A stretch of 64,000 nt of DNA from a virus (IMGVR_UViG_3300036770_007703:21289-85288), one strand, 5' to 3'. Shown: positions 59,862-64,000, numbered from the stretch's first letter. Notes: generated from the letters alone by a model not told the origin. Made by a program: numbers and translations.

Positions 59862-59886
59862 ATATGTGTATATTCTGAGAGAACAC

Positions 59887-62385
59887 ATGGCCTACGTCGT
59901 AAACAATTCACGCGGACAAGTTATCGCTGTAGTACAAGATGGCACCATCAATACCAACGCTACCAGCGTGACATTGGTGGGCAAAAACGTCACTCCCTAC
60001 GGCGAATACGAGGTAGAAAACCTCGTCAAAACCCTGGAAAACTTTGCCGACGACACACCGCCCATCAACGCCATCGAAGGGCAGCTATGGTGGGACACTG
60101 GCACAGATCAGCTCAAGGTCTGGACCGGTGACGCCTGGTCCGTGGTGGGATCGGTGATTGTGAGTCCGATCACACCGTCGGGCACCATCAACGTGGGCGA
60201 TCTCTGGTTCAACAGCAACAATTATACCATGCAGATCTATGCCGAGACCATGTCGGGGTTCCAGTGGATACCGGTGTATGTGATTCCCATAACCAATACC
60301 GAACCCACCTCTGGCATCGATGGCAGCCTTTACTACAACAATGTCAGCAACCAACTGTTCATACGCAGCGGTGGAGCCTGGCAGCTGGTGGGACCTGACA
60401 ATCTCCTGGGCTATGGTACCACGAGATGGCAGAGTCAACTGCTTTTGGATGTGTCTAGCATACCAAGGCCAGTGATCATCGGCTACGTGAATGGTGTAGC
60501 ACAGTCCATACTCAGCAACACTGAATTCACTATCCGTGCCGATGTGCGCCCCACTGGATTCGAAGACATCAAAATCGGTCTCAATCTCAGTGCCACGGGC
60601 ATGCTGCAGGGTCGAGCTTCCTCGGCCGATCGATTGGCCACACCACGCACCATCAACGGTGTAGAGTTTGATGGTACCGGCAACATCGTGATTCCCACCG
60701 ACGGCGTCACTGAAATCGGTATCATCGCCGGCCCGGGCATATCGGTGGGCAACAGTCCGGTCACTAGCTCGGGCAATATCACCATCAACAACACCGGTGT
60801 CACCAGCCTTTCCGTGGGCGCCGGTCTACGAGCCACTGCCACCACAGGACAAGTGGGCATCGTCAACACCGGTGTGTTAGATGTTCAAGGCGGTGAAAAT
60901 GTCATAGTGACATCGGCCAACGGCATAGTCACTGTGAGTGCACCTGGTGTGCGCGGTCCACAAGGTCCCATTGGACCGCAAGGTCCTGCAGGACCGCAAG
61001 GCCAAAACGGTCAAAACGGAGATCGATATCTTTGTTCCAGCAGCACCGAGCTCGAGCTATTTGCTGGAAGTTCCACGCGAGTGGTGTTTGTGCCACTGGG
61101 ATTGGCATACAGTCCTGGCCAGAGTGTGATCGTTGCCAACAGCGCCTCCAATTATTTCGAAGGCACGGTGCTAAACTACAGTGCCAGCAACGGACGCTTG
61201 GAGTTTAGACCAGTCAATGTTTTTGGAAGCGGTACTTACAGCTCCTGGACCGTGAACCTGGGTGGTGCTACCGGACCCCGCGGTCCACAGGGCGAAACTG
61301 GTGCCACTGGACCACGAGGCACAGCCGGTCCGGCTGGAGATCGATACAGTTCTACCAGTTCGACTCCTTTGATGGTGGGCAACGGATCGCGCAGTTTCTA
61401 CGTGGGCGTGGGCTACAGTTACAGTATCGGTCAGTATGTGGTCATCAGTAATTCGCCCAGCATTTACATGGAGGGTCGGGTCACTGCCTACAACAGTTCA
61501 TCGGGACTGATAACAGTAGAGGTATCTACTTCACGTGGCAGCGGTACTTACAGTTCATGGAGCGTAAATCTAGCTGGATTGCCGGGACCACAGGGTGCCA
61601 CGGGACCACAAGGACCAGAAGGACCCATGGGGCCGCCCGCCCAGGCCGCAGGTCCACAAAACAGTTTCCAATACAATGCTTCGGGTGCGTTTTATGGTGC
61701 CAGTCGTGTGCTGTATGAAAGCTCGGGAGGAAGACAATTCTTCACTGTCACCGGCGACAGCAGCGACGATGCCGGGGTGTTTTACCGCAAGAGCGGTGTG
61801 GCACAACTAGCCGGCACTGGCATAGTCAAAGAGTCTACCAACTACTTCGTGGCCGGCTGGATAGGTTCTACGGGCAGTAAAATTGGCATCGAACCCGGTG
61901 TCAACGGCAACATCCAACTCGAGGTGCAATCTGGCGGAAGAGTCAAATTGCCACAGGCCAGTCAAGTATCAATACTGGGCGGTGCCAATGGACAGTTACT
62001 CAGCACCGATGGCAACGGAAACCTGCGTTGGGTCACTGTGGGCGGCAATGAATGGAACGGCAATCTCACCTCTCCCAGCGGTTGGGCCAGGGCTTCCAAT
62101 GGATTGACGTTCCAGTGGGGGCGTGCTGTGACCGGCAGTGCCGGTCGTACCAGCATTGTTTTTCCTGTGACATTTACGCAGGCCTGTTTTTCGGTACAGA
62201 TCATGGAACTCAATGCACAAGGATGGGCAGCTTCATCGTCGACGTCTGAGCCCACAGTGTATGGAACTTACAATCCTCCCACTCGTAGTGGATTCACAGC
62301 CCAAGGCGTGCGTGTCAAATCAGCGTCAGGCACTGCACCAGGTGAATCTGGTTTGAGTTTTCAATGGTTCGCTATAGGATTCTAA
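59887..62385 (+). CDS. tail fibre protein with collagen-like repeats
   Basis: LENFA...P...EGQLWWDT attachment-like N-terminus; TPRTINGVEFDGT; three (GXY)n tracts; C-terminal NGLTFQWG...FP..F...C...WFAIGF; TAAATA at 59859. Confidence 0.85.
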   Translation: MAYVVNNSRGQVIAVVQDGTINTNATSVTLVGKNVTPYGEYEVENLVKTLENFADDTPPINAIEGQLWWDTGTDQLKVWTGDAWSVVGSVIVSPITPSGTINVGDLWFNSNNYTMQIYAETMSGFQWIPVYVIPITNTEPTSGIDGSLYYNNVSNQLFIRSGGAWQLVGPDNLLGYGTTRWQSQLLLDVSSIPRPVIIGYVNGVAQSILSNTEFTIRADVRPTGFEDIKIGLNLSATGMLQGRASSADRLATPRTINGVEFDGTGNIVIPTDGVTEIGIIAGPGISVGNSPVTSSGNITINNTGVTSLSVGAGLRATATTGQVGIVNTGVLDVQGGENVIVTSANGIVTVSAPGVRGPQGPIGPQGPAGPQGQNGQNGDRYLCSSSTELELFAGSSTRVVFVPLGLAYSPGQSVIVANSASNYFEGTVLNYSASNGRLEFRPVNVFGSGTYSSWTVNLGGATGPRGPQGETGATGPRGTAGPAGDRYSSTSSTPLMVGNGSRSFYVGVGYSYSIGQYVVISNSPSIYMEGRVTAYNSSSGLITVEVSTSRGSGTYSSWSVNLAGLPGPQGATGPQGPEGPMGPPAQAAGPQNSFQYNASGAFYGASRVLYESSGGRQFFTVTGDSSDDAGVFYRKSGVAQLAGTGIVKESTNYFVAGWIGSTGSKIGIEPGVNGNIQLEVQSGGRVKLPQASQVSILGGANGQLLSTDGNGNLRWVTVGGNEWNGNLTSPSGWARASNGLTFQWGRAVTGSAGRTSIVFPVTFTQACFSVQIMELNAQGWAASSSTSEPTVYGTYNPPTRSGFTAQGVRVKSASGTAPGESGLSFQWFAIGF

Positions 62386-62408
62386 ACACCGATTTTTGCC
62401 AAAAGTGG

Positions 62409-62437
62409 TTGACAAGGTATAAATAAACTCATACAAT
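62409..62437 (+). promoter_or_regulatory. composite promoter: sigma70 with embedded T4-type late TATAAATA
   Basis: TTGACA (62409)-17 nt-TACAAT (62432); TATAAATA at 62418-62425. Confidence 0.8.
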
Positions 62438-62444
62438 AGATGCT

Positions 62445-62576
62445 ATGATGACTTCAACACTATCACTGATATCCAAATTGCATGGTTGCCAGATCCAGGT
62501 GATGCCAGCCTATTGGCCCACATCAGGATCCACCTTCCGTGCGATTGAGAATAGTGATCATGGGGGGTCCAGGTAG
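62445..62576 (+). CDS. putative attenuator leader peptide (43 aa, all 20 amino acids)
   Basis: MMTSTLSLISKLHGCQIQVMPAYWPTSGSTFRAIENSDHGGSR*; ATG at predicted +1; stop lies inside the antiterminator 5' arm. Confidence 0.6.
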   Translation: MMTSTLSLISKLHGCQIQVMPAYWPTSGSTFRAIENSDHGGSR

Positions 62577-62609
62577 ATCGAATTGTAGCACCAAATCTAT
62601 CAGGACCCT
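62564..62609 (+). promoter_or_regulatory. antiterminator hairpin
   Basis: 62564-62578 pairs with 62595-62609 (14 of 15 pairs), overlapping the terminator 5' arm. Confidence 0.65.
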
Positions 62610-62639
62610 GGAACTAAACACTCCAGGGTTTTTTGTTTT
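62603..62639 (+). terminator. intrinsic terminator
   Basis: ACCCTGGA/TCCAGGGT stem followed by TTTTTGTTTT. Confidence 0.85.
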
Positions 62640-62640
62640 A

Positions 62641-62757
62641 CGCGCCCGGCAACGAGGGCCAGACGGCGCGCAACAAATGGTCAAACGGGCGGAGTCTGGG
62701 ATGAACATCGCGGCGGTAACGCGATCAGTAAAATCAGCAGGCAGGGGACGGCCCTGC
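62641..62757 (+). ncRNA. candidate structured RNA (H-type pseudoknot plus hairpins)
   Basis: CGCGCC/GGCGCG; loop GGCCA with TGGTC; ATCGCG/CGCGAT; GCAGGG/CCCTGC. Confidence 0.45.
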
Positions 62758-62775
62758 GATGTGGAGACTGTGCGG

Positions 62776-62804
62776 TTGACCAATAATTGGTGATTTGCTA
62801 TACT
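62776..62804 (+). promoter_or_regulatory. second sigma70-type promoter of RNA cluster
   Basis: TTGACC-17 nt-TATACT with TG extended -10. Confidence 0.7.
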
Positions 62805-62823
62805 GGCAGAACAGTAAGCAATG

Positions 62824-62835
62824 CGCTCTTTAACA
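62824..62835 (+). promoter_or_regulatory. boxA (NusB-NusE) antitermination element
   Basis: CGCTCTTTAACA matches the rrn/nut boxA consensus, about 20 nt after the -10. Confidence 0.75.
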
Positions 62836-62866
62836 ACATGCACAGCGTGGCCCAGAAGTTGGGCCA

Positions 62867-63001
62867 CCATATTGAAGCACATTCGACACTGCGGCGTTCT
62901 GTCCATCCCTGTTTCGAAGCAGGATATCGCCAAGCATTTCAAACCCCGGTCGCTCCGGTCTGGTGCCTAAAAAAGAGATGGATGAGTGTGTTTCAATATG
63001 G
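62867..63001 (+). ncRNA. long-stem RNA cassette A
   Basis: CCATATTGAAGCACATTC / GAGTGTGTTTCAATATGG 18-bp closing stem. Confidence 0.6.
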
Positions 63002-63097
63002 GAGTAAGTGGGGACCGAAAAGTCCTCGGGCTGATCCCAGACGCTGCGACTCCGACAGATCGTGATCGGATAGGCCTGACAGCACCTCAACGCTGTC

Positions 63098-63193
63098 ACC
63101 ATATTAGAGCACCGCGTGAGACGGCATTGGTGTGCTGGAACCTTGAGAAAGGTATCGCTTGACTGGTTCGAATCCAGTGTGCTCTAATATGGT
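63098..63193 (+). ncRNA. long-stem RNA cassette B with internal T-arm-like hairpin
   Basis: ACCATATTAGAGCAC / GTGCTCTAATATGGT perfect 15-bp stem; CTGGTTCGAATCCAG inside. Confidence 0.6.
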
Positions 63194-63410
63194 AGAGAGT
63201 CAATGTTAAAAATGGGTATTCAGAGTATCCGTTCTTGAAAGGTGCAAATCCTGAAAGGGTGTAGTTGGGCGTGTTGCCTGAGCAAAGGTTGGATATCACC
63301 CAATCGCTATACACTGCATAGAGCCAAGTGACAACAACATGGACTCGCCATACACGGTCGAGGTGCACCCGATCATTTCTAAAGGTCACTGACACATCGG
63401 AAAGACGGTG

Positions 63411-63527
63411 ACCATAGTGAAGCACATTGCTCTCAGCAACACAGAGCATCCGCGGAGAGGACTGATCACGCTGGATTATTCATCCAGGCTGCACATTCGA
63501 CGACTCAGCAGTGTGCTTCACTATGGT
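63411..63527 (+). ncRNA. long-stem RNA cassette C
   Basis: ACCATAGTGAAGCACATTGCT / AGCAGTGTGCTTCACTATGGT 21-bp stem. Confidence 0.6.
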
Positions 63528-63613
63528 TCCTGTTCCCTGCGGCGGACTGTAAATCCGTTGCCTTAATATGCAGGGTGGCTGGCGGTTAGGTTCGATTCCT
63601 TCAGGGACCACCA
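63525..63613 (+). ncRNA. non-canonical tRNA-like RNA with Tyr (GTA) anticodon arm
   Basis: 8-bp acceptor GGTTCCTG/CAGGGACC + ACCA; GGCGGA-CTGTAAA-TCCGTT; TTCGATT loop; no D-arm. Confidence 0.6.
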
Positions 63614-63614
63614 T

Positions 63615-63769
63615 AATTATAGGTAAGCGACGATACTGGTATCGTCTATGGACGCATAGACTATGCGGGTCCTCCCAGCCGGGGACGGATCCTGATATAA
63701 CAGACCTCGGCTTCGGCGCACTTAGCGGTGTATGCCCAAATTGGTGTTTCTCGTCGCTTACCTATGATT
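63615..63769 (+). ncRNA. long-stem RNA cassette D (different stem sequence)
   Basis: AATTATAGGTAAGCGACGA / TCGTCGCTTACCTATGATT 19-bp stem between two tRNA-type genes. Confidence 0.55.
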
Positions 63770-63844
63770 GGTCTCAAAGTGTTCATGGACGCACACCAGC
63801 CTGTCACGCTGGCAGAAGGGGATCGTTACCCCTTGGGACCGCCA
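63770..63844 (+). tRNA. tRNA-Asp (GTC)
   Basis: GGTCTCA/TGGGACC-G-CCA; CCAGC-CTGTCAC-GCTGG; atypical T-loop ATCGTTA. Confidence 0.85.
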
Positions 63845-63850
63845 AGTTTT

Positions 63851-63925
63851 GCACCCATCATCTAGTGGTTAGGATATCGCCCTTTCACGGCGAGTACACC
63901 GGTTCGAATCCGGTTGGGTGTACCA
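63851..63925 (+). tRNA. tRNA-Glu (TTC)
   Basis: GCACCCA/TGGGTGT-A-CCA; TCGCC-CTTTCAC-GGCGA; TTCGAAT. Confidence 0.92.
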
Positions 63926-63933
63926 ATAGCTGT

Positions 63934-64000
63934 CGCGGGATGGAGAAGCGGCAACTCGCCAGCCTCATAAGCTGGAGATCGCAGGTTCGATTCCTGCTCC
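63934..64000 (+). tRNA. tRNA-Met (CAT), initiator-like 5' end, truncated by window end
   Basis: CGCGGGA start; CCAGC-CTCATAA-GCTGG; GCAGG-TTCGATT-CCTGC. Confidence 0.8.

What the first reader, a model, noticed from the sequence alone, without database searches (positions are those of the whole stretch)
62867..63769. Repeated RNA cassettes with conserved long closing stems but unrelated interiors, interleaved with tRNAs
Seen: three elements (62867-63001, 63098-63193, 63411-63527) are closed by 15-21-bp stems sharing CCATAnTrrAGCAC...GTGyTyyAnTATGG, with compensatory differences between copies (TTGAAG/TTTCAA, TTAGAG/CTCTAA, GTGAAG/CTTCAC) and G-U pairs, while their 65-100-nt interiors differ. 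One interior has a T-arm mimic. A fourth (63615-63769) has a 19-bp stem of different sequence. C and D directly abut tRNA-type 5' ends. Inference: a standard processing or binding handle (RNase III-like site or phage protein site) releasing a variable set of small RNAs or tRNA decoys; alternatively miniature inverted-repeat mobile elements. This is not a CRISPR array because the repeats are inverted.
Basis: partly seen in the sequence, partly recalled or inferred. Interest (0 to 1): 0.72.

Follow-up and report, generated by a model that had tools for sequence, protein, structure and literature searches.

The report
Constant-stem RNA cassettes in phage tRNA array
Three hairpin-closed RNAs between this giant phage's tRNA genes belong to a large, phage-only, apparently undescribed family. 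One nearly constant 17-18 bp stem, starting on the CCA end of the preceding tRNA, encloses a different small folded RNA in each copy, and what these RNAs do is unknown.

Summary
Elements A (62867-63001), B (63099-63192) and C (63412-63526) share a closing helix, CCAUAUUGAAGCACAUU / AGUGUGUUUCAAUAUGG, around unrelated interiors.

The same helix closes at least 314 elements (236 distinct sequences, 129 interior families) in 145 IMG/VR phage loci. They almost always lie inside tRNA arrays and on the tRNA strand. The family was absent from one genome each of 185,579 prokaryote species. I found it in one cultured phage, Synechococcus phage BUCT-ZZ01 (host S. elongatus PCC 7942).

- **The helix is an RNA helix.** It is 97% paired, nine pairs show compensatory changes, and two conserved wobble pairs exist only on the tRNA strand.
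- **It is anchored on tRNA ends.** Its first three bases are the CCA of the upstream tRNA or of a small hairpin. Its last GG can be G1G2 of the next tRNA.
- **Interiors are separate conserved RNAs.** They are swapped between phages at the same site.
- **Element D (63613-63771) is a different family.** Its interior is conserved and its stem drifts freely.

Best reading: small-RNA cassettes transcribed with the tRNAs and freed by tRNA-end processing and/or host RNase III, with the stem as a common handle. Payload function is unknown. Ro60, an integrase and phage RNase III were not found.

This scan has reported the same family before on other genomes.

The parts
62776..62804 (+). Sigma-70-type promoter-like site (TTGACC, 17 nt, TATACT, with TG before the -10). 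It lies about 60 nt upstream of element A and is the likely start of the RNA/tRNA operon.
   Evidence: 10 of 12 consensus positions match. No terminator-like site lies between it and the end of the contig.
62849..62866 (+). Small hairpin (GGCCCA GAAG UUGGGCC) followed by A. Together with the CCA that opens element A it makes a CCA-ending mini-helix, sitting where a tRNA sits in other copies.
   Evidence: Read from the sequence. Family-wide, 46% of elements not preceded by a tRNA have a hairpin of at least 5 bp ending exactly 1 nt before the CCA, against 10-15% at other offsets.
62867..63001 (+). Element A. Constant stem (arms 62867-62883 and 62985-63001) around a 101-nt interior that is a conserved multi-hairpin RNA.
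   Evidence: 49.9 bits. Interior homologues in 8 loci (L145, L117, L006, L059, L129, L125, L063), with compensatory pairs. The same cassette sits directly behind a tRNA 3' end in another phage (X5 record 25).
63078..63098 (+). Hairpin GACAGC-ACCUCAAC-GCUGUC followed by A, preceding the CCA of element B (a mini-helix).
   Evidence: Read from the sequence.
63099..63192 (+). Element B. Variant stem (CCAUAUUAGAGCAC / GUGCUCUAAUAUGG) around a tRNA-like interior: a D-arm-like hairpin with a GG loop, a short stem capped by GAGA, and a T-arm CUGGUUCGAAUCCAG stacked on the 3' arm.
   Evidence: 36.3 bits. Homologue in L020, where the short stem covaries (ACCUU-GAGA-AAGGU versus ACCCU-GCGA-AGGGU). Not called a tRNA by ARAGORN or Rfam.
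63412..63526 (+). Element C. Stem CCAUAGUGAAGCACAUUGCUG / CAGCAGUGUGCUUCACUAUGG around an 81-nt interior. Its terminal GG overlaps the first bases of the next tRNA-like gene.
   Evidence: 49.9 bits. Interior homologues in L059, L077 and L051.
63524..63612 (+). Non-canonical tRNA-Tyr(GUA)-like gene ending in CCA. The anticodon arm is nested inside a CCCUGC/GCAGGG helix and there is no normal D arm. It separates C from D.
   Evidence: Rfam gives only a weak tRNA-Sec match (26.2 bits). ARAGORN does not call it. Conserved at 86-88% identity in 15 loci, with covarying helices in L008 and L097 (listing).
63613..63771 (+). Element D. Member of a different structured-RNA family of about 150 nt, with a conserved interior and a long closing stem whose sequence differs in every phage. 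It abuts tRNA-Asp.
   Evidence: 43 predicted pairs, 31 with compensatory changes among 6 sequences. No hit with model R1 and none in Rfam. Replaced by 264 other bases in related phages.
63770..64000 (+). tRNA-Asp (63770-63844), tRNA-Glu (63851-63925) and tRNA-Met (63934 to the contig end, cut off). This is the continuation of the same-strand array.

Best explanation
A, B and C are members of a large, phage-only family of small-RNA cassettes built into tRNA operons.

Each cassette is transcribed together with the tRNAs. Here transcription probably starts at the promoter at 62776-62804.

A constant 17-18 bp RNA helix closes each cassette. It begins on the (N)CCA of the preceding tRNA or CCA-ending mini-helix. 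It ends on UGG(U), which is sometimes G1G2 of the next tRNA.

Inferred mechanism:
- A tRNA can only work with a free CCA end and a free 5' end. The cassette must therefore be cut away at or inside this helix.
- The likely enzymes are the host's tRNA-end machinery (RNase P at the downstream tRNA, 3'-end maturation at the upstream CCA) and/or host RNase III acting on the helix.
- This would release the enclosed RNA as a stem-clamped, exonuclease-resistant small RNA.
- The stem is the common handle for processing, stability and possibly a shared protein. The interior is the payload.

There are more than 100 unrelated, individually conserved folded payload RNAs, some of them tRNA mimics. Their targets are unknown. 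Decoys or modulators used in host take-over or counter-defence are the most plausible guess.

Identical arms also let cassettes be exchanged between phages by recombination.

**Shown:** family membership, RNA-level helix, CCA/G1 anchoring, payload conservation, cassette exchange. **Inferred:** cleavage, stability, function.
For: **Family size and location.**
- Exact stem-pair pattern in 106 + 47 IMG/VR stretches.
- 314 elements, 236 distinct sequences, 129 interior clusters.
- 144 of 146 sources hold tRNAs, and the median distance from an element to the nearest tRNA is 8 nt.

**Strand and RNA-level selection.**
- Homologous interiors are never inverted relative to the tRNAs (0 reverse-strand matches).
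- The T-loop motif occurs 23 times in the tRNA sense and 0 times antisense.
- In the tRNA sense, 189 elements have G.U and no A.C in the arms, against 38 with A.C only.
- The helix is 97.3% paired and 9 of 18 pairs show double changes; 0 of 500 shuffles reach this.
- Position 11 (counted from the first C of the CCA) is G.U 55%, G-C 23%, A-U 20%. Position 16 is U.G 77%, C-G 16%.

**Anchoring on tRNA ends.**
- The upstream tRNA's CCA forms the first 3 nt of the stem in 120 of 311 elements (58 in the stricter strand-oriented count). The downstream tRNA starts 2 nt inside the stem in 36.
- Otherwise a hairpin ends 1 nt before the CCA in 46% of cases, against 10-15% background.
- The stem is followed by U (137 of 151), then an A/U-rich linker of 4-8 nt.
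- 96% of the tRNAs in these arrays encode CCA.

**Payloads are real RNAs.** Compensatory pairs occur in the A interior and in the B relative.

**Cassette exchange.**
- The tRNA-Ile(GAU) to tRNA-Ala(UGC) junction holds four different interiors with the same arms in different phages, and is empty in others.
- Cassette A lies behind a tRNA in another phage.

**Sequence constraint beyond pairing.** In the same arrays the D family keeps its interior while its stem sequence drifts freely.

**Excised-spacer analogy.** In G004 and G005 the spacer of the permuted tmRNA gene lies between the acceptor-piece CCA and the coding-piece G1. It has a degenerate form of the same stem, read by eye.

**Promoter.**
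Against: - No expression or end-mapping data exist; no RNA run holding the stretch was listed.
- No partner protein was found. There is no phage RNase III and no Ro60.
- The two ORF families that recur beside the elements are also present in phages without elements. These are an RNase H-like PF04308 protein and a metallophosphoesterase.
- A generic enzyme such as RNase III or RNase P does not by itself explain why 17 nt of stem sequence are nearly invariant.
- The census was seeded with the stem pattern. Conservation of positions 1-14 is therefore partly ascertainment; positions 15-17 and the CCA-adjacent base are not.
- Interiors show no above-chance complementarity to their own phage genomes. 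That removes one simple payload model.
Confidence: 0.5

Rival explanations
1. The stems are only processing signals for the tRNA array. They would be RNase III-type stalks that separate tRNA precursors, and the interiors would be disposable filler, like the intervening sequences of 23S rRNA.
For: - A perfect 17-22 bp helix flanked by tRNA ends.
- RNase III is present in the S. elongatus control genome; S. elongatus PCC 7942 is the host of BUCT-ZZ01.
- A similar degenerate stem occupies the excised spacer of the phage permuted tmRNA genes.
Against: - Only 88 of 1,398 distinct tRNA contexts in these arrays are followed by an element. Most tRNAs are separated by 4-8 nt linkers and evidently need no stalk.
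- Interiors are individually conserved across phages, with compensatory changes. Filler would not be.
- Many elements stand in runs without tRNAs between them.
Confidence: 0.15
2. The arms act mainly at the DNA level, as recombination or homing sequences of selfish, exchangeable cassettes (a miniature mobile element). The RNA helix would be incidental.
For: - Different interiors with identical arms occur at the same inter-tRNA site, and the site is empty in other phages.
- Cassette A is found in another context, with the breakpoint exactly at the outer edge of the stem.
- Arm sequence is far more conserved than pairing alone needs (compare the D family).
- HNH endonuclease genes sit inside 13 of these arrays.
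Against: - No target-site duplication at filled versus empty sites.
- Orientation relative to the tRNAs never flips.
- The wobble pairs are G.U on the tRNA strand; they would be A.C mismatches on the other strand.
- No tyrosine recombinase in four contigs or in the complete BUCT-ZZ01 genome.
- Copies do not share interiors, unlike MITEs.
- This reading can coexist with the RNA reading rather than replace it.
Confidence: 0.15
3. They are phage Y RNAs (YrlA-like). A conserved stem would bind a Ro60/Rsr ring and a variable or tRNA-like module would tether another enzyme.
For: A conserved closing stem with a variable loop region, and a tRNA-like module in some copies such as B. Bacterial and phage Y RNAs with tRNA-like domains are described in PMC4201824 (listed).
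Against: - No TROVE/Ro60 gene in G000, G001, G002, G004 or the complete BUCT-ZZ01 genome, and none in the S. elongatus control genome.
- No match to any Rfam family, Y RNA families included, at E-values up to 10.
- The stem is a perfect helix without the bulge that marks Ro binding sites (own knowledge).
- In B the long helix takes the acceptor position, not the anticodon position (the YrlA architecture is from own knowledge).
Confidence: 0.03

Closest known systems
RNase III processing stalks and excised intervening sequences (stems flanking 16S/23S rRNA; 23S rRNA IVS; phage T7 early-RNA sites; the RNase III step in T4 tRNA-cluster processing). Described from own knowledge.
   Same: A long, perfect double-stranded stem formed by sequences flanking an RNA inside a polycistronic stable-RNA transcript, at a place where something must be cut out.
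   Different: - One 17-nt stem sequence is kept across hundreds of copies and several phage lineages.
- The stem is anchored on the CCA and G1 of tRNAs.
- The enclosed parts are more than 100 different conserved RNAs.
- Cleavage has not been shown, and the phages encode no RNase III.
Phage T4 stable RNAs species 1 and 2 (rnaC, rnaD), in the T4 tRNA cluster
   Same: - Small RNAs of about 120-140 nt lying directly behind a tRNA in a T4-type tRNA cluster, on the tRNA strand. Their function is unknown (own knowledge).
- rnaC has a T-arm mimic next to its closing stem, like element B.
   Different: - No match to the stem model; the best hit in the T4 cluster scores 8.9 bits and lies elsewhere.
- No constant CCA-anchored helix.
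- Two fixed RNAs rather than a family of exchangeable cassettes.
Intervening segment of permuted (two-piece) tmRNA genes
   Same: It lies exactly between a CCA 3' end and a G1 5' end and must be removed for the RNA to work. In G004 and G005 the phage tmRNA spacer carries a degenerate form of the same stem.
   Different: The tmRNA spacer is a single site within one gene. The cassettes are free-standing, multiple, and carry conserved payloads.
Bacterial and phage Y RNAs (YrlA/YrlB; PMC4201824)
   Same: A conserved terminal stem with a variable interior; a tRNA-like module in some members.
   Different: No Ro60 in phage or host, no Rfam match, no bulged Ro-binding helix, and a different placement of the tRNA-like part.
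Functional RNAs from bacterial tRNA-operon spacers (for example 3'ETS-leuZ; own knowledge)
   Same: Small RNAs released as by-products of tRNA precursor processing.
   Different: Those are single-stranded sponge sequences at single loci. They have no constant clamp and no modular family.

Membership tests
Constant-stem cassette family of phage tRNA arrays (defined here by covariance model R1) | An 18-bp closing helix, ACCAUAUUGAAGCACAUU / AGUGUGUUUCAAUAUGGU, with wobble pairs at model positions 12 and 17 (stem positions 11 and 16 counted from the first C of the CCA). | tested here: met
   A scores 49.9 bits, C 49.9 bits and B 36.3 bits, with the + strand better in each. D is not hit at E-values up to 10.
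Constant-stem cassette family of phage tRNA arrays | Lies in a tRNA array on the tRNA strand, with the 5' arm starting on the CCA of a tRNA or CCA-ending hairpin. | tested here: met
   A and B follow hairpin-A-CCA units. C ends on the tRNA-Tyr-like 5' end. All are on the + strand with tRNA-Asp, Glu and Met.
RNase III processing stalk | A double-stranded stem of about two helical turns flanking the released RNA. | tested here: met
   Contiguous helices of 17-22 bp.
RNase III processing stalk | Staggered cleavage by RNase III within the stem. | not testable with these tools
   No RNA data. No phage RNase III. RNase III is present in the S. elongatus control genome.
Y RNA (Ro60-binding) | A Ro60/Rsr (TROVE) protein in the phage or its host. 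| tested here: not met
   No TROVE match in G000, G001, G002, G004 or the complete BUCT-ZZ01 genome. The S. elongatus control genome also lacks it.
Y RNA (Ro60-binding) | Match to the Y RNA or YrlA covariance models, or a bulged Ro-binding helix. | tested here: not met
   No such Rfam hit at E-values up to 10 over 62300-64000. The stem has no bulge.
MITE / transposon | Target-site duplication, insertion in either orientation, and a shared interior among copies. | tested here: not met
   No duplication at filled versus empty sites. 0 inverted interiors. 129 unrelated interior clusters.
Integron attC gene cassette | An IntI-type tyrosine recombinase, and cassettes that carry ORFs. | tested here: not met
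   No PF00589 match in four contigs or in the complete BUCT-ZZ01 genome. Elements are 63-146 nt and sit between tRNAs.
tRNA | Cloverleaf with an anticodon loop, recognised by ARAGORN or by Rfam RF00005. | tested here: not met
   A, B and C are not called. B has T-like and D-like arms, but a tetraloop where the anticodon loop would be.
CRISPR array | Direct repeats separated by spacers. | tested here: not met
   The repeated units are inverted pairs that form helices.

The most novel reading that the evidence does not exclude
The constant stem is the docking site of a sequence-specific protein not yet identified, from the phage or the host. The family would then be a programmable RNP system. 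The exchangeable interiors would form a library of aptamers or decoys, including sealed tRNA mimics. Phages would shuffle them among themselves to neutralise host RNA-targeting defences such as anticodon nucleases and other tRNA-directed immunity, or to redirect host RNA enzymes.
Probability: 0.2. Interest if true: 0.85.

Novelty: new variant of a known kind. Interest (0 to 1): 0.7.

Why it matters
Phage tRNA arrays are usually read as translation aids or as replacements for tRNAs cut by host defences.

Here the arrays of a whole group of large freshwater phages also carry a modular set of small RNAs. One constant clamp encloses more than 100 interchangeable, individually conserved payloads, and the family is absent from Rfam and from the papers I could search.

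- If the clamp is a processing or stability handle, it is a natural "RNA expression cassette" that uses the tRNA machinery.
- If the clamp binds a protein, this is a new RNP family.

Either way the payloads are candidate effectors of host take-over or counter-defence.

One member sits in a cultured phage of the model cyanobacterium S. elongatus PCC 7942, so the question can be tested at the bench.

Tried and rejected
**Databases and literature**
- Rfam, at gathering thresholds and at E-values up to 10: nothing on A-D.
- Six literature searches and one paper read (PMC10690425): no description of the family.

**Cultured phages**
- blastn of the region and of a canonical element found only tRNA matches or chance matches.
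- R1 found nothing in S-PM2, DSL-LC03, S-B05, Phosso, Atu_ph07, DLP_6 or the T4 tRNA cluster.

**Cellular genomes**
- The paired-arm pattern gave 0 hits.
- A single arm gave 14 scattered hits, below my rough chance estimate of about 35 and with no cyanobacteria. The stem is therefore not a copy of a conserved host sequence.

**Expression**
- No RNA holder was listed. The runs that were laid were DNA contigs only.

**Partner protein**
- Neighbour clustering and a presence/absence comparison were run. The element-bearing set was BUCT-ZZ01, G000, G001, G002, G004 and G005; the element-free set was S-PM2, DSL-LC03 and S-B05.
- This pointed to a metallophosphoesterase and an RNase H-like PF04308 ORF embedded in the arrays.
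- The metallophosphoesterase is in 1,563 cultured phage records, including 37-kb phage genomes. PF04308 is in DLP_6, which has no elements. Neither is specific to the family.
- Phage RNase III, Ro60 and integrase: none found.

**Other tests**
- Interiors as antisense RNAs to their own phage genome: the longest shared words are no better than for shuffles.
- CCA-anchored stems of any sequence: none in the element-free phages.
- I first read the loci as T4-like cyanophages from RegA, gp62 and Hsp20. CheckV figures put G000-G005 in phages of about 350 kb, so the group is broader than that.
- My first strand calls, based on pattern mismatches, were wrong for about 26 elements. I replaced them with orientation relative to the tRNAs.

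Full report
**1. Observation**

The region 62,800-64,000 holds, on the + strand:
- three elements closed by the same helix: A 62867-63001, B 63099-63192, C 63412-63526;
- a fourth long-stemmed element, D 63613-63771;
- a tRNA-Tyr-like gene (63524-63612);
- tRNA-Asp, tRNA-Glu and a tRNA-Met cut by the contig end.

The arm motif, with up to 2 mismatches, occurs six times in the window, exactly at the six arms. In the whole 85,288-bp contig no other site matches with fewer than 3 mismatches. A, B and C fold with long closing stems and z-scores of -3.7 to -6.3. The arm differences between copies are compensatory, and B contains a T-arm mimic.

**2. The source**

The window is the last 64 kb of a linear IMG/VR virus record that CheckV rates 25% complete. 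That points to a phage of roughly 340 kb.
- Its DNA polymerase is closest to those of the giant phages Phosso and Atu_ph07, at 45-50% identity.
- Most large ORFs have no PHROG match.
- No close relative is in the cultured-phage collection.
- The DNA runs that hold at least a quarter of the sampled words are mostly freshwater or lake metagenomes; the best holder is labelled subsurface.

**3. A large family**

The paired-arm pattern matches 106 + 47 stretches of IMG/VR.
- In these 145 loci plus the window I counted 314 elements, 236 of them distinct, of about 63-146 nt. Their interiors fall into 129 unrelated clusters.
- 144 of 146 sources hold tRNAs, and the elements lie inside the arrays.
- Five large contigs, 45-74% complete and implying genomes of about 350 kb, have 3-15 strand-hits each. 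All hits are confined to the tRNA region.
- The pattern is absent from one genome each of 185,579 prokaryote species. So the family is not prophage-borne or cellular.
- One arm alone gives only 14 scattered hits there, below my rough chance estimate of about 35. The stem does not copy a host sequence.

**4. It is an RNA helix on the tRNA strand**

When the elements are oriented by the local tRNAs:
- homologous interiors are never inverted;
- the T-loop motif is found 23 times in sense and never antisense;
- the arms have G.U without A.C in 189 elements, against A.C only in 38.

The helix runs 17-18 bp. Below, positions are counted from the first C of the CCA.
- Positions 15-17 lay outside the search pattern and are still 77-96% conserved.
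- Position 11 alternates G.U, G-C and A-U. Position 16 alternates U.G, C-G and U-A.

On a 60-sequence alignment, 97.3% of cells are paired and 9 of 18 pairs show changes on both sides. No shuffle out of 500 reaches these values, and slid registers collapse to 30-50% pairing.

Variant "dialects" of the stem keep the CCAUA base and the CACA top while the middle covaries. Examples are ACCAUAGUUCAACACA and ACCAUAUAUAAACACAUUC.

**5. Anchoring on tRNA ends**

- In 120 of 311 elements the first three bases are the CCA of the upstream tRNA. The stricter strand-oriented count gave 58.
- In 36 elements the downstream tRNA starts 2 nt inside the 3' arm, so its G1G2 are the final GG.
- In 49 elements a tRNA lies at or within 12 nt on both sides.
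- Where no tRNA precedes, 46% have a hairpin of at least 5 bp ending exactly one base before the CCA, against 10-15% at neighbouring offsets. A and B in the window show this.
- After UAUGG comes U (137 of 151), then an A/U-rich linker of 4-8 nt to the next tRNA.
- 96% of the tRNAs in these arrays encode CCA whether or not an element follows. The CCA therefore belongs to the tRNA, and the element is built onto it.
- Element-free relatives have no CCA-anchored stems of any sequence.

**6. Payloads and exchange**

The A interior is found in 8 loci (L145, L117, L006, L059, L129, L125, L063), with compensatory changes in four helices. The B interior has a relative, L020, in which the tetraloop-capped stem covaries.

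The junction between tRNA-Ile(GAU) and tRNA-Ala(UGC) carries four different interiors with the same arms in different phages. In others it is empty, with a 7-8 nt linker and no target-site duplication.

Metagenome contigs laid on the window show two things:
- cassette A sits directly behind a tRNA 3' end in another phage, with the breakpoint at the first base of the stem;
- D is replaced by 264 other bases in related phages.

**7. D is something else**

D's interior has homologues in 7 loci, each with a closing stem of different sequence. RNAalifold finds 43 pairs, 31 of them with compensatory changes among six sequences.

This gives an internal control. In the same arrays, a stem that only has to pair drifts freely. 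The A/B/C stem is therefore held by more than pairing: a sequence-reading partner, recombination between arms, or both.

**8. A cultured member**

Model R1 hits Synechococcus phage BUCT-ZZ01 (ON615601.1, complete, host S. elongatus PCC 7942).
- The best hit is at 117246-117370 (40 bits, arms AACCAUAUUAAAGCAUGCUUG).
- Weaker hits lie at 123164-123390 and 128720-128828.
- The variant stem there, ACCAUAAUUAUCUUAAAGCAC, resembles the start of D's stem.
- S-PM2, DSL-LC03, S-B05, Phosso, Atu_ph07, DLP_6 and the T4 tRNA cluster have no hit.

**9. Mechanism**

tRNAs need a free CCA and a free 5' end. The precursor must therefore be cut at or within the helix; this is an inference.

The permuted tmRNA genes of G004 and G005 carry a degenerate form of the same stem in the spacer between the acceptor-piece CCA and the coding-piece G1. 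I read this pairing by eye. That spacer has to be removed for tmRNA to work.

The promoter-like site at 62776-62804, with no terminator after it, fits one operon.

Which enzyme cuts is open. It could be the tRNA-end enzymes, host RNase III, or both.
- The phages encode no RNase III, no Ro60 and no integrase.
- Two ORF families that recur in or beside the arrays are also found in phages without elements. These are the RNase H-like PF04308 protein and a metallophosphoesterase.
- Interiors are not detectably antisense to their own genomes.

**10. What is known**

Rfam has no match, and I found no paper describing the family.

The nearest analogues are RNase III stalks and IVS, the tmRNA spacer, T4 rnaC/rnaD, Y RNAs and tRNA-operon spacer RNAs. 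T4 rnaC/rnaD lie directly behind tRNA-Arg, and rnaC has a T-arm mimic, but neither matches R1. None of these analogues shares the constant CCA-anchored clamp with exchangeable payloads.

**11. Earlier notes of this scan**

The same family has been reported several times on other genomes, with the same reading. I reached the family independently before reading those notes. The lead on the tmRNA spacer came from them, and I checked it here.

New in this report, as far as I can tell from those notes:
- the cultured BUCT-ZZ01 member;
- the separation of D as its own family;
- the exclusion of Ro60, integrase and phage RNase III;
- the negative tests of host mimicry and of antisense pairing to the phage's own genome.

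**Verdict**

This is a real, widespread, uncatalogued family of phage RNAs. Its anatomy and evolution are well supported. Its processing is inferred, and its function is unknown.

Noticed in passing
window 63613-63771: Element D belongs to a separate, uncatalogued structured-RNA family of about 150 nt. The interior is conserved (for example GGUAUCG..ACUAUGCGGG..GCCGGGGACGG..GUCCUGAnAUAAC..CGGCUUnGG..UUAGC..AAAUUGG). The long closing stem differs in sequence in every phage. 31 of 43 predicted pairs are compensatory among 6 sequences.
   Followed up: partly
window 63524-63612: A conserved non-canonical tRNA-Tyr(GUA)-like gene ending in CCA. The anticodon arm is nested inside a second helix and there is no normal D arm. 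It is present in 15 related loci at 86-88% identity, with covarying helices. ARAGORN does not call it, and Rfam gives only a weak tRNA-Sec match.
   Followed up: partly
window 62409-62640: A strong sigma-70-like promoter (TTGACA, 17 nt, TACAAT), then about 190 nt, then a terminator-type hairpin with a U run (about 62601-62640). Homologous in 8 related loci. It is either a small RNA or a 43-aa ORF (62445-62576).
   Followed up: partly
window 62641-62757: A GC-rich stretch between that terminator and the array promoter. Another first-stage note on this window calls it a pseudoknot candidate. I found partial homologues in 3 loci and did not analyse it further.
   Followed up: no
window 63002-63098 and 63194-63411: The spacers between the elements are themselves reused modules. 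Parts recur at 76-100% identity behind elements in L016, L075, L043, L091, L036, L118 and L021.
   Followed up: partly
L157 5053-5471 (BUCT-ZZ01); G004:C1:46123-46481; G005:C1:68661-69055; L156 722-1065 (DLP_6): ARAGORN calls permuted (two-piece) tmRNA genes in these phages. In BUCT-ZZ01 the call begins inside the 3' arm of an element, and the region is annotated as a hypothetical protein.
   Followed up: partly
for example L143 4949-5548, L156 5995-6477, L157 5977-6453: An RNase H-like (PF04308/DUF458) ORF of about 157 aa is embedded inside phage tRNA arrays, on the tRNA strand. This holds in 21 of 27 loci and also in cultured phages with large arrays (DLP_6, BUCT-ZZ01, KVP40-like Vibrio phages). 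Its role is unknown.
   Followed up: partly
window 59866-62385: An 839-aa ORF just upstream of the RNA region has a collagen-like Gly-X-Y run (about 61590-61650). It looks like a tail-fibre-type protein. The contig start (G000 1-1188) is also an open, fibre-like ORF, so the apparent tRNA-Met across the contig ends is not evidence of circularity.
   Followed up: no
S-PM2, DSL-LC03, S-B05 versus the element-bearing arrays: Element-bearing phages encode CCA on 96% of their tRNAs. ARAGORN found only 7, 1 and 4 CCA-ending tRNAs in the three element-free cyanomyoviruses.
   Followed up: no
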